DNA from: an uncultured Thermoleophilia bacterium
GTDB taxonomy: Bacteria; Actinomycetota; Thermoleophilia; UBA2241
Assembly: GCA_963793605.1 (NCBI GenBank)
Contig: CAWCAH010000003.1
Location: 95,534-159,533 of the forward strand
Length of the DNA: 64,000 nt
Reading direction: 5' to 3'
The notes beneath the pieces were generated by a model. It did not search any database. It saw only the letters and a program-made list of their open reading frames with translations, and was not told the origin of the DNA. This document shows positions 13,338 through 64,000 of the stretch, piece by piece. Made by a program: the position numbers and the translations under genes. Within the stretch, counting starts at the first letter, position 1, and every line of letters begins with the position of its first letter.

Positions 13338-13339
13338 CG

Positions 13340-25247: not shown

Positions 25248-25469
25248 CTCGACCTCCTCACCAGTTTGCCGCCGGGCCGTCGGCCCGGCGGCCCATCCGA
25301 CCGCGGTGAGCGGTCAATGCCACCATCATGGGGCAGAAAGCCGCCGGCCGGCTCAGCAAAGGGCGCAGTCTCGCCGGCCGGCGGCCTCCTCATGGCGAGT
25401 GCGGCAGCGCCGCTCGCCGCCCGCCCGCGCTGGCCGGCGCGGACGGGATCTTCTGACGACTTCGGCCGC

Positions 25470-26096: not shown

Positions 26097-26101
26097 GCCG
26101 A

Positions 26102-51416: not shown

Positions 51417-51583
51417 CGGACTCCGGCGAACCTGCATATCGCATTGCTACTGTGGGGGACGGAACGCACATCTAGTGTTCTCTCGCGGCAGAGCGACGCA
51501 GAAAATGCCGTCCTTGCGCGTCTTGAGAGAATATATGCGAACCCAAACGGGTGCCCGCAACTAACTGAGCGGTCAATTCGCTC

Positions 51584-51701: not shown

Positions 51702-53405
51702 ATGGCATCTGCGAAGTTCGAGCGAGAGTACGGCCAGAACCTGGTAGAGCAGGTCCTCAAGGGCAAGATGACCAGGCGCCAGATGCTGGTGCGCGCGTCG
51801 GTGTTCGGCTTCTCGCTGACCGCCGCCGGCCAGCTGCTCGCAGCCTGCGGCAGCGACGAGACCGACACCTCTGCCTCTCCGAGCGCGTCCGGCGCGCCCG
51901 AGCCCGTCATCGGCGGCAACCTCAAGTGGATCGGCCCCGCGCCGATCACCGATCCCGACCCGGTCACCATCTACGACCAGGGCGGCATCGTCCTCGTCTA
52001 CCAGTTCCTCGAGTACCTCATCGACCTCAACAACGACAACTCGCTGCGGCCCAAGCTCGCGGAGAGCTGGACTCCGAACGACAGCGTCGACGTCTGGACC
52101 TTCAAGCTCCGCTCCGGCGTCACGTTCAACGACGGCAGCCCCTTCGGCGCCGAGGACGTCGTGACGAGCATGGAGCGCGTCCTGGATCCGGACAACGGCT
52201 CCGGCGCCCTCTCGCAGCTCAGCGGTGTGCTGTCCCCCGGCGGCGCCAAGGCCGTCGACGACCTCACCGTCGAGTTCAACCTCGACAAGCCGTACGCCGA
52301 CTTCCCGTACATGGTGTCCTCCGGCAACTACAACACCGCCATCCTGCCGCGCACCTACAAGGGCGACATCATCAAGAACCCGGTCGGCACCGGTCCGTTC
52401 ATGCTCGACCAGTACACGACCAAGCAGAAGGCCACCTTCAAGAAGAACCCCACCTACTGGGGCAAGGACGAGCAGGGTCGCCAGCTGCCGTACCTGGATA
52501 CCACCGAGTACACGATGGTCGAGGACAATGCGGCCCAGAACCTGCAGCTGCAGTCCGGCGCGCAGGACCTCCAGCCGCAGACCGTGTTCCAGGGCGCCCA
52601 GGCGCTGTTCCAGGATCCGAACCTGCGCGTGGACATCTACCCCGGCACGGGCATCCGCGAAGTCGCCTTCAACACCAAGGTCGAGCCGTGGAACGGCGCC
52701 AACGGCAAGCAGCTCCGCCAGGCCGTCGCCTACTGCCTCGACCGCGTCGCCATCAACCAGGCTCTGTACGACGGCCGCAGCAACCTCGGCTTCGACACCT
52801 TCTGGGATCCGACGGTGTTCGCCGGCAGCCCGTCGCTGCCCGAGGAGCGTGCTCAGGACTACGAGAAGGCCAAGGCGCTGCTCACCGAGGCCGGCATGGC
52901 CGACGGCATGAAGATCAAGCTCACCTTCGCCAAGTACCTCGAGAACCCCCAGCTCGCTCAGCTCATCCAGGAGCAGTGCAAGCCGGCCGGCATCACCGTC
53001 GAGCTCGACCAGCTCAGCTACGACGCGTACTACGCCGGCGACGACGCCGACTATTACGGCACCACGCCGTGGCTCAACGCCGCCATGACGATCACCGAGT
53101 GGGGCAGCCGTCCCGCGCCGGGCATCTACGCCGCCGCCATGCTGCTGCCGGACGCCGTCTGGAGCTCCTCGCACTGGAACAACCCGGAGTTCGTCTCCGC
53201 CTTCGACGAGTATCAGGCCACCGTCGATGAGGCGACGCGCATGCCGCTCGCGGAGAAGCTGTCGCAGGTCCAGCAGGACGACACGCCGATCATGGTGCCG
53301 TTCTTCATCACCCAGCTGCGCACGCAGAAGAAGAACGTGTACGGCGTCCAGGGCCCCGGCTCGTTCTACTGCGACCTGAGCGCGGCCTTCATGGCCACGG
53401 CATAA
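51702..53405 (+). CDS. ABC transporter substrate-binding lipoprotein, family 5 (peptide/opine/nickel type), Tat signal
   Basis: 567 aa. MTRRQMLVRASVFGFSLTAAGQLLAACGS (Tat motif plus lipobox) is preceded by a 22-aa N-terminal extension. SBP_bac_5-like core. TAA stop. Confidence 0.85.
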   Translation: MASAKFEREYGQNLVEQVLKGKMTRRQMLVRASVFGFSLTAAGQLLAACGSDETDTSASPSASGAPEPVIGGNLKWIGPAPITDPDPVTIYDQGGIVLVYQFLEYLIDLNNDNSLRPKLAESWTPNDSVDVWTFKLRSGVTFNDGSPFGAEDVVTSMERVLDPDNGSGALSQLSGVLSPGGAKAVDDLTVEFNLDKPYADFPYMVSSGNYNTAILPRTYKGDIIKNPVGTGPFMLDQYTTKQKATFKKNPTYWGKDEQGRQLPYLDTTEYTMVEDNAAQNLQLQSGAQDLQPQTVFQGAQALFQDPNLRVDIYPGTGIREVAFNTKVEPWNGANGKQLRQAVAYCLDRVAINQALYDGRSNLGFDTFWDPTVFAGSPSLPEERAQDYEKAKALLTEAGMADGMKIKLTFAKYLENPQLAQLIQEQCKPAGITVELDQLSYDAYYAGDDADYYGTTPWLNAAMTITEWGSRPAPGIYAAAMLLPDAVWSSSHWNNPEFVSAFDEYQATVDEATRMPLAEKLSQVQQDDTPIMVPFFITQLRTQKKNVYGVQGPGSFYCDLSAAFMATA

Positions 53406-53452
53406 GGTAGGAACGGTACCGAGATAGACAGGCTGACGTAGGGACTCCCGGG

Positions 53453-54403
53453 ATGCTCCGCCTCATAGGACGCCGGCTTCTGCTGATGATCCCGACACTG
53501 ATCCTGGTGTCGATCCTCATCTTCGCGCTCGCGGAAGTGTTTGTGCCGGGCAGTGTGGGACGGTCCATCCTGGGGCCCTACGCCACCGAAGAACAGGTCC
53601 AACTGCTCAACGAGCGGCTGGGAGCGGACCGACCGATCGTCGTCCGCTACACCTCCTGGGCGGGCGGCTTCGTCACGGGGGACTGGGGCGAGTCCGCCCT
53701 GCTGAAGGTCCCGGTCCGCCCGCTGGTCATGGACGCCTTCTGGCACTCACTGCTCCTCGCCGGCTTCGCCCTCGTGCTCATCGTGCCCATCTCCATCGCG
53801 CTCGGGGTCTTTGCGGGGTTACGAAGAGACAGCGTCCTGGACCGCACCATCACCGTCTCGTCGTTGTCGATGACGGTGATCCCCGAGTTCGTCAGCGGCG
53901 TGGTGCTGCTCTATGTGTTCGCCGTGTGGCTCAAGTGGCTGCCCGTCTCGGCGCTGCCGCCGGACGGCGCACCCTTCTACGAGCGTCTCTACTACCTCAT
54001 CCTGCCGGCCATCCCGCTGATGTTCCTTGAGCTCGGCTACATCGCCAGAATGGCTCGCGTGGGCACCGTGCAGGTGCTCAGCATGCCCTACGTCCGCACC
54101 GCGGTCCTCAAGGGCGTGCCGCGCAGCAGGATCGTCTTCGGTCACGTGCTGCGCAACGCCCTGGTCCCCACGGTGACCGTCATCGGCAGCCAGGTCGGTT
54201 GGCTGCTCGGCGGCCTCGTCGTGGTCGAGAAGCTGTTCAACTACCCAGGCATCGGCCGGCTCATGGTCGAGGCGGCCCTGGCGCACGACATCCCGCTGCT
54301 CGAGGCGTCGGTCCTCCTGGTGGCCGTCGTCTACATGCTGGCCAACCTCATCGCAGACATCGTCGTAGCGCTGCTCAACCCGCGTATCCGTATGGGCGGC
54401 TGA
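53453..54403 (+). CDS. ABC transporter permease (DppB/OppB-like)
   Basis: 316 aa. MLRLIGRRLLLMIPTLILVS N-terminus. Contains the EAA-type loop YVRTAVLKGVPRSRIVFGHVLRNALVP. Confidence 0.88.
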   Translation: MLRLIGRRLLLMIPTLILVSILIFALAEVFVPGSVGRSILGPYATEEQVQLLNERLGADRPIVVRYTSWAGGFVTGDWGESALLKVPVRPLVMDAFWHSLLLAGFALVLIVPISIALGVFAGLRRDSVLDRTITVSSLSMTVIPEFVSGVVLLYVFAVWLKWLPVSALPPDGAPFYERLYYLILPAIPLMFLELGYIARMARVGTVQVLSMPYVRTAVLKGVPRSRIVFGHVLRNALVPTVTVIGSQVGWLLGGLVVVEKLFNYPGIGRLMVEAALAHDIPLLEASVLLVAVVYMLANLIADIVVALLNPRIRMGG

Positions 54404-54404
54404 C

Positions 54405-55424
54405 ATGGACGAGAGGCGCGACACCCCGTTCGGCCCCGAGCCCGACCTCCGCGAGGAGGCCATGGAGCTGGGCGCCGACCCCGAGATGATCGAGCTCCGC
54501 GCCGACGCTGCCGCGAAGGCGCGCGAGGCGGAGCTCCCCAAAGATTCCGGCAGCCGGACTGACGAGCTGCAGGCGGACGCGGCGGCTGCGGCCGAGCAGA
54601 AGCGCCAGCGCCGCTACCTCGTCAAGGCGCTGCTGCGCAGCCCGACGTTCATGGTCGGCCTCGTCATCCTGCTGTTCTGGGTGTTCATGGCCGCCTTCTC
54701 CACGTCCATCACCCAGAGCTTCACGGCGCAGGACGCCATGAACTCGCTCAAGCCGCCGACCGCGGCTCACTGGTTCGGCACGGACGACCTCGGGCGCGAC
54801 GTGTTCGCCCGCACCATGGCCGGCGCCCGGACGGTGCTCATCATCGCGCCCCTCGCCACCGTGCTGGCGCTGCTGTGGGGCAGCATCATCGGCCTCATCG
54901 CGGGCTTCTGGCGCGGCCTCACGGACGACATCATCATGCGCGGCATCGACGTCCTGCTGGCACTGCCGATCATCATCACCGCGATCCTCATCCTTTCGCT
55001 GTTCGGCAAGGGCACGGCGATCATCATCCTCACCATCGCCGTGCTGTTCACGCCGGTGGTGAGCCGCACCGTGCGCGCGGCCGTCATCGGTGAGCGCGAG
55101 CGGGAGTACGTTCTCGCGGCGCGCCTGCGCGGTGAGCGCTCCGCCTTCGTCATGGCGCGCGAGATCCTCCCCAACATCACACAGCCGATCATCGTCGAGG
55201 GCACCGTGCGCCTCGGGTACGCGGTGTTCACCGCCGCGACCCTCGCCTTCCTCGGATTCGGCCTGGCTCCGCCATCGCCCGACTGGGGTCTGACCATCTC
55301 CACACAGCGCGTGTTCCTGCAGATCGCCCCGTGGACGGTGATGTTCCCAGCGGCCGCCCTGGCGTCGCTCGTCGTGGCCATCAACCTCATCACCGACGGA
55401 CTGGGGAGGACGTTCTCCAAATGA
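54405..55424 (+). CDS. ABC transporter permease (DppC/OppC-like) with a ~70-aa charged N-terminal extension
   Basis: 339 aa. HWFGTDDLGRDVFAR motif and EAA loop YVLAARLRGERSAFVMAREILPN. Confidence 0.88.
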   Translation: MDERRDTPFGPEPDLREEAMELGADPEMIELRADAAAKAREAELPKDSGSRTDELQADAAAAAEQKRQRRYLVKALLRSPTFMVGLVILLFWVFMAAFSTSITQSFTAQDAMNSLKPPTAAHWFGTDDLGRDVFARTMAGARTVLIIAPLATVLALLWGSIIGLIAGFWRGLTDDIIMRGIDVLLALPIIITAILILSLFGKGTAIIILTIAVLFTPVVSRTVRAAVIGEREREYVLAARLRGERSAFVMAREILPNITQPIIVEGTVRLGYAVFTAATLAFLGFGLAPPSPDWGLTISTQRVFLQIAPWTVMFPAAALASLVVAINLITDGLGRTFSK

Positions 55425-57594
55425 GCACCGCGGAGAAGACACCGATGTCCGGGGATTCCGCCGCCCTCGACGTACAGATCTCGAGGTCACCTTCCACCGC
55501 CGCGGCCGCCGGCTCCCGGTGCTCAAGGGAGTCACGCTCGCCATCGAGCCGGGTCAGGCGTACGGACTCGTAGGCGAGTCCGGTTGTGGCAAGACCACGC
55601 TCGCGATGGCGGCGATGCGCTACCTCGCCTCCAACGGCACGCTCGACAACGGCCGCGTGCTCGTGGACGGTCAGGACGTGAGCGAGCTGAGCGAAGAGGC
55701 GCTCCGCAAGTGGCGCGGCGGCAAAGTGGCCATGGTCTACCAGGACCCGACCCAGGCGCTCAGTCCCGCGATGCGCATCGGCGCCCAGCTCGCCGAGGTC
55801 TACCACTACCACGAGGGGCTGGACAAGAAGGCAGCCCTGGAGAAGGCGCGCGAGGCCCTGCGCCGCGTCGCCATCCCGGACCCGGATGCGACGCTCAAGC
55901 GCTACCCGTTCGAGCTCTCCGGCGGCCAGCAGCAGCGTGTGGTCATCGCCATGGCGCTGGCCGTGAATCCGCAGCTGCTCATCCTCGACGAGCCCACCAC
56001 CGGCCTCGACGCGACGGTCGAGGCCGAGATCCTCGACCTCATCGAGGAGCTGCGCGGGCGCATCAACGCCTCCATCCTGCTCATCACACACAATCTCGGC
56101 CTGGTCGTGCGCCTCTGCGAGAAGGTCGGCGTGCTGTACGCGGGCCGGCTCGTCGAGGAGGGGCCGGCCAAGCAGGTCTTCACCGATCCTCGGCATCCGT
56201 ACACCATGGGCCTGTTGCGCTGCGTCCCGCGCTTCGGCATGAACAAGACGGATGCCGCCCTGCAGACCATCCCGGGCACGCTGCCGGCGCTGGGCGAACC
56301 GCTCGAAGGCTGCGTGTACTCGGCCCGATGCCCGATGGCGCAGCCGATCTGCAAGATGCGCGAGCCGGACTTCTACGCCTGGCCGGGCGACGCCCCCGAG
56401 CTGGGGCGCGCCGAGGCTGAGGCGTTGCCGCCCGACCCGGCGGCGTACTCGCCCCACCACGCCCAGCCCGTGGGAGTCAGCGACAGACACGTGCGCTGCT
56501 ACTTCTGCGCCGACACGCCGGCGATGCCCGACATGACCCCCGTGCTGGCGACCAGCCTGGAGGACCGCGGCGCCGACGACGGTGACGTCCTCGGCATCGA
56601 TCACGTGGTCCGCACGTTCAAGGACGGACGCAAGAAGCTCACGGCGGTCGCAGACGTGTCTCTCAGCCTGCGCAAGGGCGAGACGTTCGGGCTGGTCGGC
56701 GAGTCGGGCAGCGGCAAGACCACGCTCGCCAAGTGCATCACCGGGCTCATCCCGGCGGACTCGGGCACCATCACCTTCGAGGGTGGCGTGCTCAAGCCCA
56801 CGGCCGGCAGGCGCTCTCAGGACGCGCTACGGGCGATCCAGATGGTCTTCCAGAACCCGGACTCCACGCTCAACCCGGCCTGGAGCACGCGGGCGATCCT
56901 CACGCGCGCGGTCCGCAAGCTGGGCGGCGCCAAGACCGGCTCCGTCCGCGCGAAGGTCGACAAGCTCTCGGCAGACGTGCGCGTGGAGCCGCGCTTCCTC
57001 TTCCAGAGGCCCACTGAGCTCTCTGGCGGGCAGAAGCAGCGTGTCGCCATCGCGCGCGCCTTCGCCGGCGACCCGACGCTGGTCATCTGCGACGAGCCGG
57101 CATCGGCGCTCGACGTCTCCGTGCAGGCCAGCATCCTCAACCTGCTCGTCGAACTGCAGACCAAGGAGCAGGCGTCGTACGTCTTCATCAGCCACGACCT
57201 CGCGGTGGTGCGCTACATCTCCGACCGCATCGGGGTCATGTACCTCGCGGAGCTCATCGAAGTCGGTGCGGCTGCCGACGTGTTCAGCCCGCCGCACCAC
57301 CCCTACACGGAGGCGCTGTTCAGCTCCATCCCGCGCCTGGACTTCGAGGAGCAGAAGGACCGGATCCCGCTGCGCGGCAACATGCCCAGCCTCAGCGACC
57401 CGCCGTCAGGCTGTCGCTTCCACACACGCTGTCACCGGGTCCTGGGCGAGATCTGCGCCAACGAGATACCGCCGGATCAGGACGCCGGCGACGGGCACAC
57501 CTACAAGTGCCACATCCCGCCGGACGAGCTGCGCGCACTGCAGGCCAAGGGTCATGCGGCGGCCGAAGCTGCGCCGGCGGCCTCGTCCGACTGA
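55421..57594 (+). CDS. Fused double ATP-binding protein of the ABC transporter (DppD-DppF-like); one frame break near 55477
   Basis: ATGA overlap with the permease. MSTAEKTPMSGDSAALDVQ is followed, after one missing base, by DLEVTFHRRGRRLPVLKGVTL. Two Walker A motifs (GESGCGKTT, GESGSGKTT), two LSGGQ motifs and two oligopeptide C-terminal domains. Confidence 0.85.
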
Positions 57595-57730
57595 CACGCG
57601 GTCGGTCGGAGCGCGCCGCGGCTGTAGCGCTGGCGCTGGCGACCGGCACCGGTTATCGCCTTCTTCCATCGCGACAAGACCCATTGACCGCGATTCGACA
57701 GGCGTGATATCCCTTAACGGGCTTATCCGG

Positions 57731-57745
57731 GGTCCATTTATGACC
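57731..57745. promoter_or_regulatory. GGTCCATTTATGACC inverted repeat upstream of the enolase-superfamily gene (candidate FadR-type GntR site)
   Basis: GGTC-N7-GACC. The 13-mer GGTCCATTTATGA recurs at 61016-61028. Confidence 0.5.
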
Positions 57746-57851
57746 TAGGGGTGGCGACTCGTCTGGTGCCGGCGCCGCAAGAGGTCCCGATGCGGACGGC
57801 CACGAGCACCAGAAGAGCCCGACTTAGACCCGGCGTTGAGGAGGACGACTC

Positions 57852-58970
57852 TTGAACATCACCGACATCGCCATGACTCCTCTCTGGCTGCCGTTCAAGG
57901 AGCCGTACCACTGGGCTGGGCGGGTCGACCTCGGCGCGGCGGTCGTGCTCGTCGAGGTCTTCACCGACGAGGGCCTGGTCGGAGTCGGGGAGTCGACTGC
58001 GGGGATCCCCGCGGACAGCACGGTAGCCGCGCTGAAGAGCGTGGCCCCCCTGCTGATCGGCGAACCCGTGTTCGACATCGAGAGACTGGTGACCAAGGCG
58101 CGCTTCCTGGGGAGCTTCAACCACGCGCCTCGAGCGGCCAACCTTGCTCTTGCCGGGTTCGAGATGGCGCTCTGGGACGTGCTCGGTAAGGCCGCCGGCT
58201 GGCCCGTGTTCCGGCTGCTGGGGGGCGCGGTGCGCGATGACGTCGACTACTTCGGGTTCGTCCAGGGCGACACCACGGAGGAACTCGTGGAAGATGCCCG
58301 TGACTTGGCGGAGGCGGGGTACTCCGTGATCTACCTCAAGGTCGGCCGCGGCTCGGAGGCCGACCTGCGCAACACGGCGGCGGTGCGCGAGGCCATCGGC
58401 GATCGCCGCCTCCGCCTGGATGCCAACGGGGCATGGGGGGTGACCGAGGCGATCCACATGATCGGGCGCCTCGCGCCCTTCGGGCCCGAGTGGATCGAGC
58501 AGCCGACGCCGCCCACGAGCATCGCCGCGATGCGCCAGGTGAAGGACGGTGTGGCCGTCCCCATCGCCGCCGACCAGGCGGCGTTCACTCCCTCCGACGT
58601 CTACGAGATCTGCCGCCAGCGCGCCGCCGACGCCATCGTGCTCTCGACGCACGAGGCGGGCGGCCTGCACGCCTTCGCAAAAGCCGCGGCTATCGCTGAG
58701 GCCGCCGGCGTGCCGATCTGCCTGCACGGCCAGAACGTCTCGAGCATCACTGACGCGGCCCAGCACCACCTCGGCTTGAGCACCGCCAACCTCAGCGACG
58801 GGAACCAGATCATGCACCAACTCATCGCCGAGGACCTCGTGGTCTCTCCTGATCTGAGTCCCGCCGGTGGAAAAATAGGAATGCTTGAGTCTCCCGGCCT
58901 GGGCGTGGAACTGGACCGCGACGCCGTCGCCCGGGCCGCTGAAAGGCATGCGAAGGAGAAGGGACTATGA
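57852..58970 (+). CDS. Mandelate racemase / muconate lactonizing enzyme family protein (enolase superfamily)
   Basis: 372 aa. TTG start follows GAGGAGG. LVGVGES, FEMALWDVLGK, YLKVG, LRLDANGAW, WIEQP, PIAADQ barrel motifs. Confidence 0.85.
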   Translation: MNITDIAMTPLWLPFKEPYHWAGRVDLGAAVVLVEVFTDEGLVGVGESTAGIPADSTVAALKSVAPLLIGEPVFDIERLVTKARFLGSFNHAPRAANLALAGFEMALWDVLGKAAGWPVFRLLGGAVRDDVDYFGFVQGDTTEELVEDARDLAEAGYSVIYLKVGRGSEADLRNTAAVREAIGDRRLRLDANGAWGVTEAIHMIGRLAPFGPEWIEQPTPPTSIAAMRQVKDGVAVPIAADQAAFTPSDVYEICRQRAADAIVLSTHEAGGLHAFAKAAAIAEAAGVPICLHGQNVSSITDAAQHHLGLSTANLSDGNQIMHQLIAEDLVVSPDLSPAGGKIGMLESPGLGVELDRDAVARAAERHAKEKGL

Positions 58971-59974
58971 GCGTGCTCATCGCAGACCAGGACCTCGTCA
59001 CCGAACTCCTGCCCATGGAGGACGCCATCGGCGTGATGAGGCGCGCCTTGACCCTGCTCGCAGAGGGCGATGTGATGATGCCGCTGCGCTCGATGCTCCA
59101 CCTGCCGAAGGGCGGCGCCGTCATGGGCCTCATGCCGTCGTACCTCGGTGGCCTCGAAGCCGTCGGCGTCAAAGTCATAGCCGAGTTCCCGACCAACTTC
59201 GGCAGCGAGTACGACACCCACCAGGGAGTCGTACTGTTCTTCGATACAGAGAGGGGCTTGCTGCGTGCCATGGTGGATGCGACGGCCGTCACCGCCATCC
59301 GCACGGCGGCCGTGAGCGGCCTGGTCACCGATCTGCTCGCGAATCCCGACGCCGGGGATCTGGCGATCATCGGCGCAGGCACTCAGGCGCACACGCATCT
59401 GCAGGCGATGACGGCGGTGCGTCCCGTCCGCAGAGTGCGCGTGTATTCCGTGCCCGGCGAGAGCGCGGCGACGTTCGCGGACCGCGAGTCTCGGCGCACG
59501 GGACTCAAGATCGAAGTCGCCGCCAGCGCCGAGCAGGCAATCGAAGGCGCCGACCTCATCTGCACGGTCACGACCTCCCACGAACCCGTCGTGCATGGCG
59601 CCTGGGTCAGCCCGGGCGCTCACATCAACGCCGTCGGCGCCTACAACCCGGCGACGCGCGAGCTGGATTCGGCACTCGTGGCGAAGTCGCGCCTCTACGC
59701 CGACCGGCGCGAGTCGCTGCTCAACGAAGCCGGTGAGTTCCTCATCCCCAAGGGCGAGGGGCTCTTCGGCGACGAGCACATCGTCGGGGAGATCGGCGAG
59801 GTCCTCACCGGCAAGGCCCGCGCGCGCACGTCACCACAGGAGATCACGTTGTTCAAGTCGCTCGGGATCGCCATCGAGGACCTGGCGGCCGCCCACTACG
59901 TGTACGAGGCGGCCAAGGCCAGGGGCCTCGGCCAGTGGGTCGAGATCGGCGGCAGGCACTTCGGGGCGGGGTGA
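58967..59974 (+). CDS. Ornithine cyclodeaminase / mu-crystallin family protein (ketimine or pyrroline-2-carboxylate reductase-like)
   Basis: 335 aa. ATGA overlap with the upstream gene. ...TAIRTAAVSGLVTDLLA...LAIIGAGTQAHTHLQAM...INAVGAY... family motifs. Confidence 0.85.
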   Translation: MSVLIADQDLVTELLPMEDAIGVMRRALTLLAEGDVMMPLRSMLHLPKGGAVMGLMPSYLGGLEAVGVKVIAEFPTNFGSEYDTHQGVVLFFDTERGLLRAMVDATAVTAIRTAAVSGLVTDLLANPDAGDLAIIGAGTQAHTHLQAMTAVRPVRRVRVYSVPGESAATFADRESRRTGLKIEVAASAEQAIEGADLICTVTTSHEPVVHGAWVSPGAHINAVGAYNPATRELDSALVAKSRLYADRRESLLNEAGEFLIPKGEGLFGDEHIVGEIGEVLTGKARARTSPQEITLFKSLGIAIEDLAAAHYVYEAAKARGLGQWVEIGGRHFGAG

Positions 59975-59990
59975 GCGTCGCTCGGGGGCC

Positions 59991-60857
59991 TCAGACGTCC
60001 CCGTCAGCGACGCGTCGAGTGTCTCGCGCTGCCGGGGCAGCCCGATCCGCAGGGTCTGGTTCCATGATTGGCGAGGCGTTCTCGCGGCTTGCGTTCGCGT
60101 GGGCCACCACGCCGTCGAGCAGGTCCTCGAGGTCCTGCTCCGACCACTCGAGCGCCTCTCTCATGAGCAGGCCGGCCCGCTCTGGATCGCTGTCTGCGAT
60201 CGCCTCGGCGATGGGCCGGTGGAAGTAGGCGAAATCCCGGTCCTGGATCGGCAGGGAGTCCCACGGCAGGCGAGAGTAGATCGCGTCGTACCAGGCGAAG
60301 AAGGCCGTCCGGGTGCGCTGGACGGCGTCGAGCATGAGCCAGTTGCCCGACGCCGCGGCAACGGCGGCATGGAACCGCGAATCGATGCTGCGCCAGGAGC
60401 GGAAGCTCCAAGCCTGCTCGTCCGCGATGGCGGTGATCATCGCGACGTCCTCGGCGGTCGCCCGCCGGGCAGCCAAGGACGCCGCGGCGGGCTCGATGGC
60501 GAGACGGAACTCATAGCTTGCCCTGATCTCGCGATGGCTTGCCAGGATCTCCTCCGACATGCGCTTCGGCTGGACCGGCCTGTCCGAGACGACGGTTCCG
60601 CCGCTGCGTCCGAGTCGCGTCTCCACGAGCCCCTCATCGTTCAGGGTCCGCATCGCCTGACGGATCGAGTCGCGACCGACGCGCAGCGTCTCGGCCAGCT
60701 CCCTCTCCGAGGGAAGACGCTCCCCCGGCGAGAGGGCCCCCAGTGCGATAAGCCTGCGCAGCGAGTCCGCCACGAGCATCGACGACGAGCGAGGCCGCAG
60801 CGGTCCAAGGTCGAGTGCCGGATTCACGCCGGCGACGCTCTCCCCTTCACCTCTCAT
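59991..60857 (-). CDS. GntR family regulator, FadR subfamily (FCD domain)
   Basis: LPSERELAETLRVGRDSIRQAMRTLNDEGLVE HTH followed by an all-helical FCD-like domain. An alternative start is the internal ATG at 60779. Confidence 0.8.
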   Translation of the reverse strand: MRGEGESVAGVNPALDLGPLRPRSSSMLVADSLRRLIALGALSPGERLPSERELAETLRVGRDSIRQAMRTLNDEGLVETRLGRSGGTVVSDRPVQPKRMSEEILASHREIRASYEFRLAIEPAAASLAARRATAEDVAMITAIADEQAWSFRSWRSIDSRFHAAVAAASGNWLMLDAVQRTRTAFFAWYDAIYSRLPWDSLPIQDRDFAYFHRPIAEAIADSDPERAGLLMREALEWSEQDLEDLLDGVVAHANASRENASPIMEPDPADRAAPAARDTRRVADGDV

Positions 60858-61015
60858 CCACGCTCCTGACCTTCAAGCTGCCGGTGCATCCACCGGTGCA
60901 GCTTCGCACGTCTTCCTTCGCCAAGTAAACACCCGTGCCTCCGCGACAACGACCGCCGTGCAGCTTCTTGACGGTCCGCGTCGCCTGTGTGAGACTCCAG
61001 ATAGGACCCGGTAGA

Positions 61016-61028
61016 GGTCCATTTATGA
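61016..61028. promoter_or_regulatory. Second copy of GGTCCATTTATGA in the FadR-type GntR / MttB divergent spacer
   Basis: Exact 13-mer match to 57731-57743. Preceded by GGACC (61004-61008), which forms GGACC-N7-GGTCC. Lies 63 nt upstream of GTG 61091. Confidence 0.5.
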
Positions 61029-61090
61029 TGAGGGTGCGCGACGGTGACCCGTGAGCAGTCCTCGATGATCATGACAGGTGGAGGTAGACG

Positions 61091-62485
61091 GTGGGCAAGC
61101 CGGCCATCCGGGTGTGGGACACGGAGGAGTGCGAGCTCGTACACGAAGCGACCTTGCGTGTCCTCTCGGAGTGCGGGGTCGAAGTGATGTGGGGACCGGC
61201 GCTCCGACGCTTCGCGGAGGCGGGCGCGAAGATCGACGGCAACCGGGTCAGGCTGAGCGCGGAGCTCGTGAACGAGGCCCTTGCGTCCGCCCCTCGCACG
61301 TGGTCTGTGAGATCGAGGGGCCGTGACGAAGTGCTGGAGCTCAAGGACGGCCCCACGTACTTCGGCTCGGGATCCGACTGCCTGTACATCACCGACCCGG
61401 ACACGGGCCGACGGCGCAGAGCCGTCGTGGACGACATCGAGGCCCTGGCGAGCCTGTGCGAGAAGCTCGAGAACATCGACTTCGTCATGTCGATGGGATT
61501 CCCCGAGAACGTGCCGCCCGAGTCGGAGGTGCTTCACCAGCAGGTCGCCCTGCTCAAAGGCACGCGCAAGCCACTTCTCATCGTGCCCCGGGACGGTCAC
61601 ACCCTGGCTACGATGAAGGCGATGGCCGAGGCCTGCGGCGGCGGTGACAGCCTCATCGTCTACGGCATGCCGTCGCCGCCGCTGATGCACGACGAGTTCG
61701 CCCTCTCCAAGATCGAGACGTGCGCCGAACTGATGATCCCGCTCGTCTACGCGCCCGCGCCGACGGCGGGCTCCACCGCACCCGCCTCCATCGCCGCCGT
61801 CGTGGTCACCGGGAACGCGGAGGTGCTGAGCGGCCTCGTCCTGCATCAACTCGTGAACCCCGGAGCTCCGTTCGTCTACGGAGCCGGGTGCGACACGCTG
61901 GACATGCGGACGATGGTCAATCCCTACGTCTCGCCGGAATGGTCCATGGGCTGCCAGGCGGGCTGTGATCTGGCTCGCTTCTACTCGCTGCCGAGCTTCT
62001 CCTACGGCGGGTATTCCGATGCCAAGATGCTGGACGAACAGTGGTCGGCCGAGACCGCGATGACCGCCGTCATGGGCGCCCTCTCGCGGGGTACGCTCCT
62101 GCACGACGTCGGCTATCTCGAGATGGGGATGCAGACGTCCTTCGAGTCCATCGTGCTCGGCGATGAGCTCGCCGGCTTCGCCAAGGCGTGCCTGCGCGAT
62201 ATCGCCGTGGACGACGAGGCTCTCGCCGTCGACGAGATCATCGCGGTCGGGCCCGGCGGCAACCACCTGCCTCGTCGCTACACCCGCAAGCACTATCGTG
62301 AGTTCTGGACGCCCAGGCTGCTCGACAAGGCCCCGCACGATCGCTGGCAGAGCAACGGCGCGACATCGCTGAAGCAGCGCGTCCAGCAACGCGTCGCCGA
62401 GCTACGGGCGGAGCCGCCTCGCTTCGTCCTCGACGACCACGCCCTCGGGGATATTCAAAGCCTGCTGCGAAGCGCCGCTGTGTGA
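61091..62485 (+). CDS. MttB-superfamily methyltransferase, non-pyrrolysine paralog
   Basis: 464 aa. GTG start follows GGTGGAGG. Collinear with the MttB family. Tyr occupies the Pyl-equivalent position (SYGG-Y-SDAKMLDEQWS). Confidence 0.85.
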   Translation: MGKPAIRVWDTEECELVHEATLRVLSECGVEVMWGPALRRFAEAGAKIDGNRVRLSAELVNEALASAPRTWSVRSRGRDEVLELKDGPTYFGSGSDCLYITDPDTGRRRRAVVDDIEALASLCEKLENIDFVMSMGFPENVPPESEVLHQQVALLKGTRKPLLIVPRDGHTLATMKAMAEACGGGDSLIVYGMPSPPLMHDEFALSKIETCAELMIPLVYAPAPTAGSTAPASIAAVVVTGNAEVLSGLVLHQLVNPGAPFVYGAGCDTLDMRTMVNPYVSPEWSMGCQAGCDLARFYSLPSFSYGGYSDAKMLDEQWSAETAMTAVMGALSRGTLLHDVGYLEMGMQTSFESIVLGDELAGFAKACLRDIAVDDEALAVDEIIAVGPGGNHLPRRYTRKHYREFWTPRLLDKAPHDRWQSNGATSLKQRVQQRVAELRAEPPRFVLDDHALGDIQSLLRSAAV

Positions 62486-62518
62486 TCCGGCGTCCAGCAC
62501 GGGCACAGCCGCCGATTC

Positions 62519-62547
62519 TTGCACAACGTTGGATATGGGCCTATAGT
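62519..62547 (+). promoter_or_regulatory. Candidate promoter TTGCAC-N17-TATAGT upstream of the second SBP gene
   Basis: Hexamers at 62519-62524 and 62542-62547 in a low-GC spacer. Pattern match only. Confidence 0.35.
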
Positions 62548-62623
62548 GCGCCCAAATAGCGCCCACAGGGGAGGCTTGCCTTCGGCAGCCATGAGGCGCT
62601 GACCGTACGGGGGAGGTTGCTCC

Positions 62624-64000
62624 ATGCAAGACGATCGGCATGCCAAAGAGTACGCAGACCACTTGATCCAGCAGGTCCAGGGGGGGCGGATGACGCGTCG
62701 CCAGTTGCTCATCCGGGCGTCGGTGTTCGGCTTCTCGCTGACCGCAGCCGGGAGTCTTCTCGCGGCATGCGGCGGTGACTCCACGACGACCTCCGAAGGG
62801 TCGCCTTCCGCTTCGGCGGCGCCACAGAGGGGCGGGTCCATCAAGGTGACCGCCCTCACTCCGCTCAGCGCGCTCGACCCGGTCACCATGTACCAGACCG
62901 GCGACATCGCGACGGTGGAGCAGATCTGCGAGTACCTGATCTGGATCAACAACGATCTCACCCTGCGTCCGGTCCTTGCCGAGAGCTGGTCACCGGATCC
63001 CACCGGCGCGGTCTGGACGTTCAAGCTGCGCCAAGGCGTCAGCTTCAACGATGGGTCACCCCTGGCCGCCGAGGATGTGGTGGCCACGTTCGATCGCCTT
63101 GTCGACCCCGACAGCGGATCCGGCGCCCTGTCGGCTCTCAAGGGGATCCTCTCGCCGGGCGGCACGCAGAAGATCGATGACTACACGGTACAGTTCAACC
63201 TCGATGCCGCGTTCGCCGACTTCCCGTACCTGGTCTCGTCGGGCAACTACAACTCGGTCATCCTCCACCGCTCCTTCGCCGGTGACTTCCTCAAGAAGCC
63301 GATCGGCACCGGTCCGTTCATGCTGACCGACTTCAAGGCCAAGCAGAGCGCGACGCTCAAGCGCAACCCGAACTACTGGCAGAAGGGTCTGCCCTACCTC
63401 GATGAGGTCGGCTTCGTCTACATCGACGACGCACAGGCCCAGGCGGTGCAGCTCCAGTCGGGCGCCGTCGATGTTCAGGCCCAGACCGCCTTCCAGGGGT
63501 CCCAGGCGCTGTTCGCCAACCCCAACCTCAACGTGATCACGACGCACTCGACCGCCATCCGTGAAGTGGCTATGCGGGTGGACCAGGAGCCGTACAGCGA
63601 CAAGAACGTCCGCCAAGCTGTGGCGTACTGCCTCGACCGGCAGGCCATCATGGCGAGTCTCTACGATGGTAAGGGCACCCAGGGCAGCGACCAGATCTTC
63701 TCGCCGCTCTACCCGGCATCGCCGTCGTTCCCGGATCGGGCGCAGGACTACGAGAAGGCCAAGCAGCTCCTCAGCGACGCCGGCTACGCCGACGGCGTCA
63801 AGCTCACTCTCACCACCGCCTCCTCCTATCTCGATCTTGCGCAGTACGCTCAGATCATCGCGGAGCAGTGCAAGCCCGCGGGCATCGACATGAAGCTGAA
63901 CACCATGTCCGCCACCGAGTTCTACGGCGGTGACTCGAGCACCACACCTTGGCTCAACGCGAACATGACCATCGTGGAGTGGTCGCCGCGTCCGGTGGCG
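62624..64000 (+). CDS. ABC transporter substrate-binding lipoprotein, family 5 (paralog of 51702-53405); 3' end beyond the window
   Basis: Not in the ORF track (no stop inside the window). My translation from ATG 62624 (GGGGGAGG upstream) reads MQDDRHAKEYADHLIQQVQGGRMTRRQLLIRASVFGFSLTAAGSLLAACGG.... It stays open to 64000 and is roughly 55% identical by eye to the first SBP. Confidence 0.8.
   Translation, partial: MQDDRHAKEYADHLIQQVQGGRMTRRQLLIRASVFGFSLTAAGSLLAACGGDSTTTSEGSPSASAAPQRGGSIKVTALTPLSALDPVTMYQTGDIATVEQICEYLIWINNDLTLRPVLAESWSPDPTGAVWTFKLRQGVSFNDGSPLAAEDVVATFDRLVDPDSGSGALSALKGILSPGGTQKIDDYTVQFNLDAAFADFPYLVSSGNYNSVILHRSFAGDFLKKPIGTGPFMLTDFKAKQSATLKRNPNYWQKGLPYLDEVGFVYIDDAQAQAVQLQSGAVDVQAQTAFQGSQALFANPNLNVITTHSTAIREVAMRVDQEPYSDKNVRQAVAYCLDRQAIMASLYDGKGTQGSDQIFSPLYPASPSFPDRAQDYEKAKQLLSDAGYADGVKLTLTTASSYLDLAQYAQIIAEQCKPAGIDMKLNTMSATEFYGGDSSTTPWLNANMTIVEWSPRPVA

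What the first reader, a model, noticed from the sequence alone, without database searches (positions are those of the whole stretch)
51702..64000. Possible anaerobic, corrinoid-dependent version of the proline-betaine / hydroxyproline-betaine catabolic module
This stretch combines several elements: two paralogous Tat-lipoprotein SBPs with a full ABC importer, a mandelate-racemase-family enzyme translationally coupled (ATGA) to an ornithine-cyclodeaminase/mu-crystallin-family enzyme, a FadR-type regulator and a non-Pyl MttB methyltransferase. In aerobic proteobacteria, the proline-betaine and 4-hydroxyproline-betaine pathways use an enolase-superfamily betaine racemase/epimerase (HpbD). They also use Rieske and flavin demethylases and an OCD-family pyrroline-2-carboxylate reductase. 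Eubacterium limosum demethylates proline betaine with the MttB-family enzyme MtpB. Here the oxygenase-type demethylases are absent and an MttB paralog takes that place. PutA, which would consume the resulting proline, is at the other end of the window.
Basis: inference. Interest (0 to 1): 0.65.

Follow-up and report, generated by a model that had tools for sequence, protein, structure and literature searches.

The report
Corrinoid-linked methylated-amine uptake and breakdown cluster
An uncultured sediment actinobacterium carries a co-regulated gene set (a peptide-type importer, a trimethylamine-methyltransferase relative without pyrrolysine, an orphan enolase-family enzyme and a cyclic-imine reductase) that probably breaks down an N-methylated amino-acid-like compound without oxygen; which compound is unknown, and proline betaine is only one candidate.

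Summary
The apparent break in the ABC ATPase is an assembly error.

The host is an uncultured Thermoleophilia from anoxic sediment or groundwater. The same window holds pyrrolysine-type MttB and MtbB, a corrinoid protein, Hdr-like genes and an aldehyde:ferredoxin oxidoreductase (AFOR). "Anaerobic, corrinoid-dependent" is therefore reasonable.

The pathway assignment is only partly supported:
- The enolase-family enzyme is not HpbD-like. It belongs to the orphan 2PGW family and lacks the second catalytic lysine.
- The MttB paralog has Phe where all five characterised non-Pyl members keep an anion-binding Arg.
- The published proline-betaine pathway contains no pyrroline-2-carboxylate (Pyr2C) reductase.

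Comparative genomics does support a real module:
- 2PGW-type enolases lie within 300 nt of MttB genes in 21 of 80 loci, in Actinomycetota, Chloroflexota and a Pseudomonadota MAG; in alphaproteobacteria MttB lies 3-5 kb away.
- The enolase is coupled to a cyclic-imine reductase from either of two unrelated families (OCD here, Ldh_2 in rhizobia).
- This MttB type travels with Dpp-type importers and, in one relative, with an adjacent corrinoid protein.
- One 13-mer precedes both the enolase and the MttB gene.

The substrate remains unknown. I rate it a new variant of a known kind, of moderate interest.

The parts
51702..53405 (+). SBP1: family-5 (Dpp/Opp/Nik-type) substrate-binding Tat-lipoprotein, 567 aa
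   Evidence: PF00496 at 1.3e-77. TRRQML twin-arginine motif and LLAAC lipobox with Cys49. Tyr and Ser align with E. coli DppA Arg355 and Asp408, in a gapped, low-identity alignment. An ortholog of 77% identity lies beside the same permeases in L015.
53453..54403 (+). DppB/OppB-type ABC permease
   Evidence: PF00528 and PF19300. Below all NCBIfam equivalog cut-offs.
54405..55424 (+). DppC/OppC-type ABC permease
   Evidence: PF00528 and OppC_N.
55421..57594 (+). Fused DppD/DppF-type double ABC ATPase. The window sequence lacks one G after 55475, which is an assembly error
   Evidence: Two ABC_tran and two oligo_HPY domains. ATGA overlap with the permease stop. The frame change is visible in the translation. 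A G is inserted after 55475 in the contigs of three independent runs.
57731..57743 (+). Operator-like 13-mer GGTCCATTTATGA (within GGTC-N7-GACC), upstream of the enolase gene
   Evidence: One of only two exact copies in the 64-kb window, both in promoter regions. The core AGGTCCATTTA is kept at the same two places in relative L008.
57852..58970 (+). 2PGW-family enolase-superfamily enzyme (372 aa), function unknown
   Evidence: PF13378 and PF02746. 2PGW at 8e-106 with 48-49% identity; all other PDB entries in the lists at most about 30%. Residues invariant across seven aligned family members: Y161-x-K163, D190/E216/D241, E268, H292. Below the cut-offs of all NCBIfam equivalogs.
58967..59974 (+). 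OCD/mu-crystallin-family NAD(P)H enzyme, most like Pyr2C/ketimine reductases; translationally coupled to the enolase gene
   Evidence: PF02423 at 2.3e-82. Best PDB hit is the Pyr2C reductase 6t3e at 6.5e-68; cyclodeaminases score about 1e-25. ATGA overlap.
59991..60857 (-). GntR/FCD (FadR-subfamily) regulator, divergent from the MttB gene
   Evidence: PF00392 and PF07729. Conserved in L008 and L020.
61016..61028 (+). Second copy of the 13-mer GGTCCATTTATGA, in the GntR-MttB intergenic region
61091..62485 (+). MttB_F: MttB-superfamily methyltransferase without pyrrolysine (464 aa), a divergent subtype
   Evidence: PF06253 at 5e-78. MtgB (9yce) at 4.5e-63; 30-35% identical to all other MttBs compared. 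Tyr at the Pyl position, Phe at Arg312, Ser at Tyr97, Gly at Phe356; His348 is kept. Overlaps OCD in one operon in L020. A corrinoid gene lies directly upstream in L088.
62624..64000 (+). SBP2: paralogous family-5 Tat-lipoprotein SBP (cut by the window end; 551 aa in L001)
   Evidence: PF00496 at 2.9e-87. 54% identical to SBP1. Directly downstream of MttB_F in L008, L020 and L088.
25398..26100 (-). Corrinoid (B12-binding) protein in the same window; a candidate methyl acceptor acting in trans
   Evidence: The translation carries DLHDIG and SALLTT, the expected His-on B12-binding motifs. It lies between Pyl-MttB and Pyl-MtbB. Assigning it to MttB_F is inference.

Best explanation
This is a co-regulated uptake and catabolism unit of an anaerobic or facultative Thermoleophilia bacterium. 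Its substrate is most likely a quaternary or N-methylated amino- or imino-acid-like compound whose identity is not resolved.

Proposed steps:
1. A Dpp/Opp-type ABC importer with two paralogous Tat-lipoprotein binding proteins takes the compound up. The SBPs appear to lack DppA's peptide-termini anchors.
2. MttB_F passes one N-methyl group to the Co(I) form of a corrinoid protein encoded elsewhere; one lies at 25.4-26.1 kb. The methyl group then goes on to tetrahydrofolate.
3. The 2PGW-type enolase-superfamily enzyme abstracts the proton next to the carboxylate of the carbon skeleton. It has three metal ligands, Lys163 on one face and a likely His292/Glu268 pair on the other. It then either epimerises the compound or eliminates a beta substituent.
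4. The coupled OCD-family enzyme reduces the resulting cyclic imine to an L-imino acid such as proline, which general metabolism (PutA) can use.
5. The GntR/FCD regulator probably controls both the enolase-OCD and the MttB-SBP2 transcription units through the shared GGTCCATTTATGA site.

Shown here: gene identities, gene linkage, motif sharing and residue patterns.
Inferred: the substrate class, the order of steps, and every catalytic activity.
For: Gene identities.

Operon-level coupling:
- ATGA overlaps.
- In relative L020, enolase, OCD and MttB_F overlap by 4 nt each.
- The same gene order occurs in L008 at 91-96% identity.
- A 13-mer occurs in the window only upstream of the enolase and MttB genes. 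Its core is conserved in L008.

Family-level linkage:
- Of 80 genomic loci with a 2PGW-type enolase, 21 have an MttB gene within 300 nt and 39 within 10 kb. The loci with MttB within 300 nt are from Actinomycetota, Chloroflexota and one Pseudomonadota MAG; in the alphaproteobacterial loci the MttB gene lies 3-5 kb away.
- 26 of the 80 have an OCD or an Ldh_2 gene directly adjacent.
- The rhizobial version is LysR-MttB-...-glycine-betaine SBP-enolase-Ldh_2.
- OCD/mu-crystallin and DpkA-type Ldh_2 enzymes are unrelated families. Both include Pyr2C/Pip2C reductases, a case the paper calls convergent evolution (PMC3958920).
- The best PDB match of the window's OCD protein is a Pyr2C reductase.
- One alphaproteobacterial enolase locus adjoins a 4-hydroxyproline epimerase gene.

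Importer-MttB_F linkage without the enolase: L088, L089 and L146. In L088 a corrinoid gene lies 58 nt upstream of the MttB_F ortholog.

Trans use of a single corrinoid protein by several MttB paralogs is reported for Eubacterium (PMC12478193).

Precedent from my own knowledge: the Opp-like Prb system of S. meliloti imports proline betaine (Alloing et al. 2006). prbA is described as a proline-betaine transporter gene in PMC5388416.
Against: - MttB_F lacks the Arg312 equivalent that binds the anionic group in every characterised non-Pyl member. It also lacks both aromatic residues of MtgB. Its substrate could be something other than a carboxy-betaine.
- About half of the 2PGW-type enolase loci have no MttB gene within 10 kb. 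Many sit at the end of genuine hut operons next to an Fe-S serine-dehydratase-like gene. The enolase family is therefore not restricted to methylated amines.
- Loci with only enolase plus MttB and no reductase (L004 and others) fit a racemase better than a dehydratase. The chemistry of step 3 is open.
- No methylcorrinoid:THF methyltransferase or reductive activase was found among the ORFs of the window that were scanned.
- There are no expression data; only DNA runs were found.
- PutA is 50 kb away.
Confidence: 0.5

Rival explanations
1. The cluster is an anaerobic proline-betaine or 4-hydroxyproline-betaine pathway. The enolase member acts as an HpbD-type betaine racemase/epimerase. MttB_F acts as an MtpB-type proline-betaine methyltransferase. 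The OCD member acts as a Pyr2C reductase that yields proline for PutA.
For: - Betaine-type context of the same enolase family in rhizobia: a glycine-betaine SBP lies directly upstream and an MttB gene is nearby.
- Loci with only enolase plus MttB fit a racemase that feeds a stereospecific methyltransferase.
- The OCD member resembles Pyr2C reductases.
- PutA is in the window.
- An Opp-like proline-betaine importer is known (own knowledge).
Against: - No entry titled as HpbD appears among the 60 best PDB sequence matches or the 50 best Foldseek matches, although HpbD structures such as 4J1O exist.
- Ser265 stands where HpbD needs its second Lys, Lys266.
- Arg312, conserved in MtpB, is Phe here.
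- The published Pro-B route needs no Pyr2C reductase.
- After one corrinoid-dependent demethylation proline betaine gives N-methylproline. The cluster holds no obvious enzyme to convert that to proline.
Confidence: 0.15
2. The enolase and OCD genes form a self-contained hydroxy-imino-acid route. [quoted passage not shown] The substrate would come in through the Dpp-type importer as a free imino acid or a short peptide. MttB_F and SBP2 would form a separate methylated-amine unit that merely lies beside it in a methylamine gene island.
For: [quoted passage not shown]
- A reductase from either of two unrelated families is coupled to the enolase gene.
- A 4-hydroxyproline epimerase gene lies next to one homolog.
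- MttB_F orthologs occur with importer genes but no enolase in L089 and L146; in L088 the contig ends just upstream, so an enolase there cannot be excluded.
- The window holds six MttB genes, so a chance neighbour is possible.
Against: - In L020, MttB_F overlaps the OCD stop codon in the same operon.
- The shared 13-mer precedes both units.
- Immediate enolase-MttB adjacency recurs in 21 of 80 loci, in Actinomycetota, Chloroflexota and a Pseudomonadota MAG, with several MttB subtypes.
- The score against the cis-3-hydroxyproline dehydratase model is 95.7 bits against a cut-off of 500.
- The cluster holds no peptidase.
Confidence: 0.17
3. This is an ordinary peptide, opine or nickel uptake locus with unrelated metabolic neighbours. 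The grouping reflects gene shuffling within a catabolic island, not one pathway.
For: - The SBP, permeases and ATPase give their best hits to Dpp/Opp/Nik/opine systems.
- The same importer, at 80-90% identity, also lies near hut-type enolase loci.
- Gene order around these genes differs between relatives.
Against: - All transporter hits fall far below the equivalog cut-offs.
- The DppA residues that hold the peptide termini are not conserved.
- Importer-MttB_F and enolase-MttB linkage both survive rearrangement.
- The operator-like motif is shared.
Confidence: 0.08

Closest known systems
Eubacterium limosum MtpB/MtqC/MtqA proline-betaine system and its paralogs MtcB, MtyB and MthB; Desulfitobacterium MtgB
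   Same: A non-pyrrolysine MttB-superfamily protein of full length. Many paralogs occur in one genome. The corrinoid protein is encoded apart from most paralogs. The lifestyle is anaerobic.
   Different: - Only about 32% identical to MtgB.
- The anion-binding Arg312 is Phe, and the aromatic pair Tyr97/Phe356 is Ser/Gly.
- The gene is linked to a Dpp-type importer, an enolase-family enzyme and a ketimine-reductase-like enzyme. None of these belongs to the Eubacterium systems, to my knowledge.
HpbD pathway for proline betaine and trans-4-hydroxyproline betaine (Pelagibaca, Paracoccus, Rhodobacter)
   Same: An enolase-superfamily enzyme sits in a cluster with a transporter and N-demethylating enzymes. 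In the alphaproteobacterial relatives of this family a betaine-type SBP lies next to the enolase gene.
   Different: - HpbD uses two Lys residues (164 and 266). This enzyme has Lys163 but Ser265, plus an invariant His292.
- No HpbD entry ranks among its nearest solved structures.
- The demethylases there are Rieske and flavin enzymes.
- That pathway has no Pyr2C reductase.
PDB 2PGW, 'putative muconate cycloisomerase' of Sinorhizobium meliloti 1021 (pSymA), and its gene cluster
   Same: Same protein family: 48-49% identity over the full length, with the same invariant residues. The gene is again coupled by an ATGA overlap to a reductase and lies near an MttB gene.
   Different: - The reductase is of the Ldh_2 (DpkA) family, not OCD.
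- The importer is ProVWX-type with a glycine-betaine SBP.
- The MttB keeps Arg312.
- The host is an aerobe.
- No function is published, as far as my searches show.
[quoted passage not shown]
   Same: The logic of a dehydratase followed by a cyclic-imine reductase. The reductase is of the OCD family and most resembles Pyr2C reductases.
   Different: - The enolase member is only 25-26% identical to the Labrenzia enolase-superfamily structure 4MGG. That 4MGG is the dehydratase rests on my recollection.
- It scores 95.7 bits against a cut-off of 500 for that family.
- No MttB gene is part of the known route.
Ruegeria pomeroyi MtgBCD (aerobic cobalamin-dependent glycine-betaine demethylation)
   Same: It shows that MttB-family enzymes work with a shared core corrinoid protein outside strict anaerobes. 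This is relevant to the rhizobial version of the module.
   Different: The substrate there is glycine betaine. No enolase, reductase or Dpp-type importer is involved.
Prb, the Opp-like proline-betaine/choline ABC importer of S. meliloti
   Same: A family-5 (peptide-type) binding-protein importer that carries quaternary amines.
   Different: The resemblance is one of class only.

Membership tests
MttB superfamily, non-pyrrolysine quaternary-amine methyltransferases | Full-length PF06253 (MTTB) TIM-barrel domain | tested here: met
   PF06253 at 5.2e-78, covering residues 4-451. Aligns over the full length with MtgB 9yce/2qne.
MttB superfamily, non-pyrrolysine quaternary-amine methyltransferases | No in-frame UAG; an ordinary residue at the pyrrolysine position | tested here: met
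   The ORF is uninterrupted. Tyr aligns with Pyl: PSFSYGGYSDAK against PSYVAGSXSDAK.
MttB superfamily, non-pyrrolysine quaternary-amine methyltransferases | Arg312 (MtgB numbering) binding the substrate's anionic group; reported as conserved in MtgB, MtcB, MtpB, MthB and MtyB | tested here: not met
   Phe at this position in the window protein and in its orthologs in L008, L020 and L010. His348 is kept. Tyr97 is Ser and Phe356 is Gly.
MttB superfamily, non-pyrrolysine quaternary-amine methyltransferases | A cognate corrinoid protein is available | tested here: met
   A corrinoid protein lies at about 25398-26100 in the same window. A corrinoid gene lies directly upstream of the 83%-identical ortholog in L088. 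That the two proteins pair is inferred.
MttB superfamily, non-pyrrolysine quaternary-amine methyltransferases | Substrate:cob(I)alamin methyl-transfer activity | not testable with these tools
   This needs an enzyme assay.
MtpB (proline betaine:corrinoid methyltransferase) | Orthology to E. limosum MtpB | not tested
The only indirect test, Arg312 (reported as conserved in MtpB), is not met.
HpbD (hydroxyproline betaine 2-epimerase / proline betaine racemase) | Enolase-superfamily fold with three carboxylate metal ligands | tested here: met
   PF02746 and PF13378. D190, E216 and D241 are invariant. The model matches 2PGW with TM 0.90.
HpbD (hydroxyproline betaine 2-epimerase / proline betaine racemase) | Two catalytic lysines, at the ends of strands 2 and 6 (Lys164 and Lys266) | tested here: not met
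   Lys163 is present. Ser265 aligns with the strand-6 Lys of an MLE-subgroup structure, 3fcp. The Lys is also missing in 2PGW. HpbD residues are taken from PMC3950512.
HpbD (hydroxyproline betaine 2-epimerase / proline betaine racemase) | Close sequence or structure relationship to HpbD | tested here: not met
   No entry titled as HpbD appears among the 60 best PDB sequence hits or the 50 best Foldseek hits. After 2PGW, the best hits are at most about 30% identical.
2PGW family (orphan enolase-superfamily group) | High full-length identity and the shared motifs PYHW, YLKVGRG, IEQP, ADQ, E-x-GG and C-[LI]-H | tested here: met
   8.1e-106 and 48-49% identity. Invariant columns in alignment A1.
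Muconate cycloisomerase / dipeptide epimerase (MLE subgroup) | Family score above the curated cut-off, and a Lys-x-Lys motif plus a strand-6 Lys | tested here: not met
   TIGR02534 scores 170.9 bits against a cut-off of 334.95. The motif is Tyr161-x-Lys163, with Ser265 on strand 6.
[quoted passage not shown] | Score above the cut-off of NCBIfam NF043002 | tested here: not met
   95.7 bits against a cut-off of 500. 25-26% identical to the Labrenzia enolase-superfamily structure 4MGG.
Pyr2C/Pip2C (ketimine) reductases of the OCD/mu-crystallin family | OCD_Mu_crystall domain, and closer to reductases than to cyclodeaminases | tested here: met
   PF02423 at 2.3e-82. 6t3e (Pyr2C reductase) scores 232.6 bits, ketimine reductases 190-195 bits, and cyclodeaminases about 93 bits.
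Pyr2C/Pip2C (ketimine) reductases of the OCD/mu-crystallin family | Curated equivalog cut-off (NF004793) | tested here: not met
   254.5 bits, below the cut-off of 322. I did not check whether the cyclisation Asp and Glu residues are absent.
Dpp/Opp-type peptide ABC importers | Family-5 SBP, two BPD_transp_1 permeases, and an ATPase with oligo_HPY domains | tested here: met
Dpp/Opp-type peptide ABC importers | SBP residues that anchor the peptide termini (E. coli DppA Arg355 and Asp408; from my own knowledge) | tested here: not met
   Tyr and Ser align at these positions. The alignment is gapped and of low identity, so this is weak evidence. All equivalog scores fall far below their cut-offs.
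FadR subfamily of GntR regulators | GntR winged-helix domain plus a C-terminal FCD domain | tested here: met
   PF00392 at 4.1e-17 and PF07729 at 9e-20.

The most novel reading that the evidence does not exclude
2PGW-type enolase-superfamily enzymes, a cyclic-imine reductase (OCD or Ldh_2) and MttB-family methyltransferases together define a corrinoid-dependent, oxygenase-free pathway that has not been recognised. It would be shared by sediment Thermoleophilia, Chloroflexota and rhizobia. It would convert plant- or alga-derived imino-acid betaines to proline or pipecolate; candidates are stachydrine, 3-hydroxystachydrine, betonicine and homostachydrine. The MttB_F clade, which has an aromatic residue in place of Arg312, would represent a new substrate class or binding mode within the superfamily.
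Probability: 0.25. Interest if true: 0.7.

Novelty: new variant of a known kind. Interest (0 to 1): 0.5.

Why it matters
Quaternary amines and betaines are abundant osmolytes. Their anaerobic demethylation feeds C1 metabolism and, indirectly, methane and trimethylamine budgets. Only five non-pyrrolysine MttB specificities have been characterised, while genomes hold dozens of paralogs.

This locus offers three testable leads:
- An MttB subtype that lacks the conserved anion-binding arginine.
- A function for an orphan structural-genomics enzyme family (2PGW) that travels with MttB genes in Actinomycetota and Chloroflexota and lies near them in alphaproteobacteria.
- A peptide-type importer that may carry methylated amines.

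A homologous cluster sits on pSymA of the genetically tractable, aerobic S. meliloti. The pathway could therefore be solved there and the result carried over to the uncultured anaerobes.

Tried and rejected
- **Hercynine or ergothioneine catabolism in the relatives' HAL/urocanase clusters.** Rejected. The genes pass the equivalog cut-offs for HutH and HutU and fail the thiourocanate models. HutI-like and formiminotransferase genes are also present.
- **Riboswitch or other RNA element in the cluster.** An Rfam scan at gathering thresholds found nothing in the finding region. It found only the two PYLIS elements elsewhere. No tRNA is present, including tRNA-Pyl.
- **Pseudogenised ATPase.** Rejected; the frameshift is an assembly error.
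- **Published function for 2PGW or for the rhizobial cluster.** Three literature searches found none. The pSymA record in the plasmid collection carries no annotation.
- **Direct alignment with HpbD, MtpB or PrbA.** Not possible, because no sequences could be obtained. I used published residue numbers, PDB rankings and Foldseek instead.
- **Is 4YYC the MttB of the 2PGW cluster?** No. It is another S. meliloti paralog.
- **Expression evidence.** The run search with kind 'any' returned only DNA-type runs; a dedicated RNA query was not made.
- **Reciprocal test seeded with MttB_F in metagenomes.** Most hits of 54-60% identity lie in multi-MttB/corrinoid clusters without an enolase gene. The enolase link therefore holds for the close orthologs, not for the wider MttB_F-like clade.

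Full report
**1. The observation**

- a family-5 substrate-binding protein (SBP), 51702-53405;
- two Dpp/Opp-type permeases, 53453-54403 and 54405-55424;
- a fused double ATPase with two oligo_HPY domains;
- an MR/MLE enolase-superfamily protein, 57852-58970;
- an OCD/mu-crystallin protein, 58967-59974;
- a GntR+FCD regulator on the minus strand, 59991-60857;
- an uninterrupted MTTB-domain protein, 61091-62485;
- a second family-5 SBP from 62624 that runs off the window. It is 551 aa in the identical metagenome contigs L001/L002.

The ATGA overlaps at the enolase/OCD and permease/ATPase junctions are in the sequence. The two SBPs are 54% identical. They share a twin-arginine motif, a lipobox and a conserved N-terminal extension.

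The ATPase ORF seems truncated because the reading frame changes near 55475. Contigs of three independent public runs all carry an extra G after 55475. The window has an assembly indel there, and the gene (55421-57594) is intact.

**2. The organism and its setting**

The enolase protein has hundreds of homologs of 74-79% identity in MAGs labelled Thermoleophilia or Actinomycetota. The closest genome locus is L008, from a Thermoleophilia MAG. It is 91-96% identical and has the same gene order. The sequence recurs in freshwater-sediment, groundwater and rock metagenomes.

The rest of the window points to an anaerobic methylotroph:
- Six MttB-superfamily genes. One has an in-frame TAG followed by a PYLIS_3 match.
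- An MtbB gene with an in-frame TAG followed by a PYLIS_2 match.
- A corrinoid protein between those two genes.
- HdrA-, MvhD- and HdrD-like genes.
- A tungsten-type aldehyde:ferredoxin oxidoreductase (AFOR).

Actinobacteriota MAGs that express pyrrolysine-type mttB and mtbB have already been reported from Stordalen Mire (PMC10805028).

**3. The enolase-family enzyme**

Its only close solved relative is 2PGW, a structural-genomics "putative muconate cycloisomerase" from S. meliloti pSymA. The match is 8e-106 at 48-49% identity. An AlphaFold model (pLDDT 83) gives the same picture with Foldseek. 2PGW has TM 0.90. It is followed by dipeptide epimerases, N-succinylamino-acid racemase, muconate-lactonizing enzymes (MLE) and others at 22-30% identity. 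The Labrenzia enolase-superfamily structure 4MGG is 25-26% identical; that it is the cis-3-hydroxyproline dehydratase is my recollection. No entry titled as HpbD is in either list.

All NCBIfam equivalogs fall far below their cut-offs:
- muconate cycloisomerase, 171 bits against 335;
- cis-3-hydroxyproline dehydratase, 96 bits against 500.

Across seven family members, including S. meliloti, the invariant residues are:
- the metal ligands D190, E216 and D241;
- Y161-x-K163;
- E268 and H292;
- a PYHW motif near the N-terminus.

In the HMMER alignment with an MLE-subgroup structure, Ser265 stands at the strand-6 catalytic Lys and Tyr161 at the first Lys of KxK. HpbD is defined by Lys164 and Lys266 (PMC3950512). 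The enzyme is therefore neither HpbD-type nor MLE- or dipeptide-epimerase-type. A mandelate-racemase-like Lys/His pair is the likely acid/base set; this is inference. Such a pair allows either epimerisation or beta-elimination.

**4. The OCD member**

Its best solved relative is the Pyr2C reductase 6t3e (6.5e-68). Next come ketimine reductases, mu-crystallin and archaeal alanine dehydrogenase. True ornithine and lysine cyclodeaminases score about 1e-25. It stays below the curated cut-off of the Pyr2C/Pip2C reductase model.

**5. The MttB paralog (MttB_F)**

It is 30-35% identical to every other MttB compared, including the five others in the window. The 2026 MtgB structure paper defines Tyr97, Arg312, His348 and Phe356 as the glycine-betaine site. 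It states that Arg312 is conserved in MtcB, MtpB, MthB and MtyB (PMC13080624).

In MttB_F these positions are Ser, Phe, His and Gly. Tyr stands at the pyrrolysine position. The same pattern occurs in most MttB genes that neighbour 2PGW-type enolases in Thermoleophilia and Chloroflexota: an aromatic residue at 312, plus "GSD" and "HD" motifs.

By contrast, window MttB_E (41856-43346) sits beside a BetI-type repressor and keeps Arg, His and Phe. The rhizobial MttB near 2PGW keeps Arg and His. MttB_F is thus a member of the superfamily but fails one feature shared by all characterised non-Pyl members.

**6. Is the grouping functional?**

*Within the lineage.*
- In L020, enolase, OCD and MttB_F overlap by 4 nt each, with SBP2 following.
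- L008 keeps the window's gene order.
- A 13-mer, GGTCCATTTATGA (part of GGTC-N7-GACC), occurs exactly twice in the window. One copy is 120 nt upstream of the enolase gene and the other 75 nt upstream of MttB_F.
- Its core, AGGTCCATTTA, is kept at both places in L008. This fits control of both units by the intervening FadR-type regulator.

*Across genomes.* A scan of one genome per species returned 80 loci with 2PGW-type enolases. Neighbour analysis by tblastn gave these counts:

| Neighbour of the enolase gene | Loci out of 80 |
|---|---|
| MttB within 300 nt | 21 |
| MttB within 10 kb | 39 |
| OCD directly adjacent | 21 |
| Ldh_2 directly adjacent | 5 |
| Corrinoid protein within 10 kb | 9 |

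The loci with MttB within 300 nt come from Actinomycetota, Chloroflexota and one Pseudomonadota MAG. In the alphaproteobacterial loci the MttB gene lies 3-5 kb from the enolase gene. The neighbouring MttB genes are of several subtypes.

In S. meliloti and other alphaproteobacteria the order is: LysR, MttB, GlxA, a DddP-like M24 protein, isochorismatase, a ProVWX-type ABC system with a glycine-betaine SBP, the enolase, then Ldh_2. The enolase and the reductase again overlap by ATGA.

OCD/mu-crystallin and DpkA-type Ldh_2 proteins are unrelated families. Both include Pyr2C/Pip2C reductases, a case the paper calls convergent evolution (PMC3958920). This non-homologous replacement is the best argument that the enolase product is a cyclic imine. 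One Geminicoccaceae locus pairs the enolase gene with a bona fide 4-hydroxyproline epimerase gene.

**7. Limits of the linkage**

- About half of the enolase loci have no MttB gene nearby.
- Many sit at the end of complete hut operons (hutU, 2-oxoacid:ferredoxin oxidoreductase, hutH, hutI, formiminotransferase). There they are followed by a fused Fe-S serine-dehydratase-like gene, with or without OCD.
- Loci with only enolase plus MttB and no reductase fit a racemase better than a dehydratase.
- A reciprocal metagenome scan seeded with MttB_F showed that the tight partner of MttB_F is the family-5 importer. In L088 (83% identity) the order is corrinoid protein, MttB_F, SBP2 ortholog; the contig ends just upstream of the corrinoid gene. 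In L089 an importer ATPase precedes MttB_F. In L146 a full importer precedes MttB_F.
- Hits of 54-60% identity lie in multi-MttB/corrinoid clusters without an enolase gene.
- The importer itself, at 80-90% identity, also occurs near hut-type enolase loci and, rearranged, in L015.

**8. The importer**

The SBPs give their best hits to uncharacterised, peptide, agropinic-acid and nickel binders, all far below equivalog cut-offs. In the alignment with E. coli DppA, Tyr and Ser stand at Arg355 and Asp408. From my own knowledge, these two residues hold the peptide termini. The alignment there is gapped, so this is weak evidence against a peptide ligand.

An Opp-like importer for proline betaine and choline, Prb of S. 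meliloti, is a precedent (own knowledge). prbA is called a proline-betaine transporter gene in PMC5388416.

**9.

The published proline-betaine route is HpbD, then a Rieske demethylase, then the flavin demethylase HpbA, then PutA. It has no Pyr2C reductase (PMC3950512). The nearer analogy for an enolase plus OCD pair is the cis- or trans-3-hydroxyproline route, a dehydratase followed by a Pyr2C reductase (PMC5144071 and PMC3958920).

Use of one core corrinoid protein by several MttB paralogs is reported for Eubacterium. Cobalamin-dependent MttB-type demethylation also works in aerobes (PMC12478193). So the lack of an adjacent corrinoid gene here, and the aerobic rhizobial homologs, are both compatible with the model.

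**10. Verdict**

The genes form a real, conserved and probably co-regulated unit. It links a Dpp-type importer, a divergent non-Pyl MttB, a 2PGW-type enolase-family enzyme and a ketimine-reductase-like enzyme.

The most likely role is anaerobic uptake and catabolism of an N-methylated or quaternary amino- or imino-acid-like compound. The methyl group would go to a corrinoid protein acting in trans. The carbon skeleton would be processed at C-alpha and reduced to an L-imino acid.

The specific assignment to proline or hydroxyproline betaine is not required by the data, and several membership tests argue against it. I rate the cluster a new variant of a known kind (MttB-superfamily methylotrophy) and of moderate interest. 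The tractable S. meliloti homolog is the practical route to a function.

Noticed in passing
window 23778-25313 (-), TAG at 24264-24266; window 26102-27571 (-), TAG at 26456-26458: A trimethylamine methyltransferase (MttB) gene and a dimethylamine methyltransferase (MtbB) gene each carry one in-frame TAG at the pyrrolysine position. Each TAG is followed by an Rfam PYLIS match (PYLIS_3 at 71.9 bits, PYLIS_2 at 67 bits). This is a pyrrolysine-using, high-G+C Thermoleophilia. No tRNA gene is in the window. Pyl-mttB and Pyl-mtbB expression by Actinobacteriota MAGs is already reported (PMC10805028).
   Followed up: partly
window ~25398-26100 (-): A corrinoid protein gene with DLHDIG and SALLTT motifs, missed by my G+C-based ORF filter. 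It lies between the Pyl-MttB and Pyl-MtbB genes.
   Followed up: partly
window 22253-23782 (-), 29182-30768 (+), 40377-41855 (+), 41856-43346 (+): Four further non-Pyl MttB paralogs, which makes six MttB-superfamily genes in 64 kb. MttB_E (41856-43346) keeps MtgB's Arg312, His348 and Phe356 and lies next to a BetI-type TetR repressor (43381-44067), so it is probably a glycine-betaine methyltransferase. MttB_A (22253-23782) is 78% identical to the MttB that directly follows 2PGW-type enolases in many relatives.
   Followed up: partly
window 9576-13846 (+) and 44217-45743 (+): HdrD-like (CCG domains), HdrA-like and MvhD-like genes in a row, and a tungsten-type aldehyde:ferredoxin oxidoreductase. 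These are markers of an anaerobic, ferredoxin-based metabolism.
   Followed up: no
window 55475; 39122-40387 / 39885-40376; 38429-39004: The assembly has indel errors. One G is missing after 55475, as shown by three other assemblies. An aminotransferase gene is split over two frames. A ketopantoate hydroxymethyltransferase gene is reduced to a fragment, whereas the homologs in L003 are intact. Apparent pseudogenes in this window should not be trusted.
   Followed up: partly
window 57731-57743 and 61016-61028; L008 3211 and 6522: The 13-mer GGTCCATTTATGA lies upstream of both the enolase and the MttB_F gene. It is AT-rich in a 70% G+C genome and is part of GGTC-N7-GACC. Its core is conserved at both places in a relative. 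It is probably the operator of the FadR-type regulator.
   Followed up: partly
L003, L053 and about 30 other loci (for example L053 1482-13766): In many Thermoleophilia a paralog of the enolase (about 70-79% identical) closes a complete histidine-utilisation operon: hutU, 2-oxoacid:ferredoxin oxidoreductase, hutH, hutI, formiminotransferase. It is followed by OCD (not always), a fused Fe-S serine-dehydratase-like gene, sometimes an octopine-dehydrogenase-domain gene, and a molybdenum hydroxylase. No explanation so far accounts for this link between the enolase family and histidine catabolism.
   Followed up: partly
L006 (S. meliloti plasmid CP050513.1, 918851-929306): The pSymA cluster around 2PGW holds an MttB paralog, a GlxA regulator, an M24 protein that most resembles the DMSP lyase DddP (315 bits, below the cut-off), an isochorismatase-family hydrolase and a glycine-betaine-type ABC system. 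It looks like an uncharacterised betaine or sulfonium catabolic locus in a tractable organism.
   Followed up: partly
window 49152-50510 (+) and 50575-51471 (-): A PF12831 FAD-dependent oxidoreductase and a GntR/UTRA regulator lie directly upstream of SBP1. They stay with the SBP1 importer operon in L015 (73-77% identity). They may belong to the same unit, and the oxidoreductase is a candidate further catabolic enzyme.
   Followed up: no
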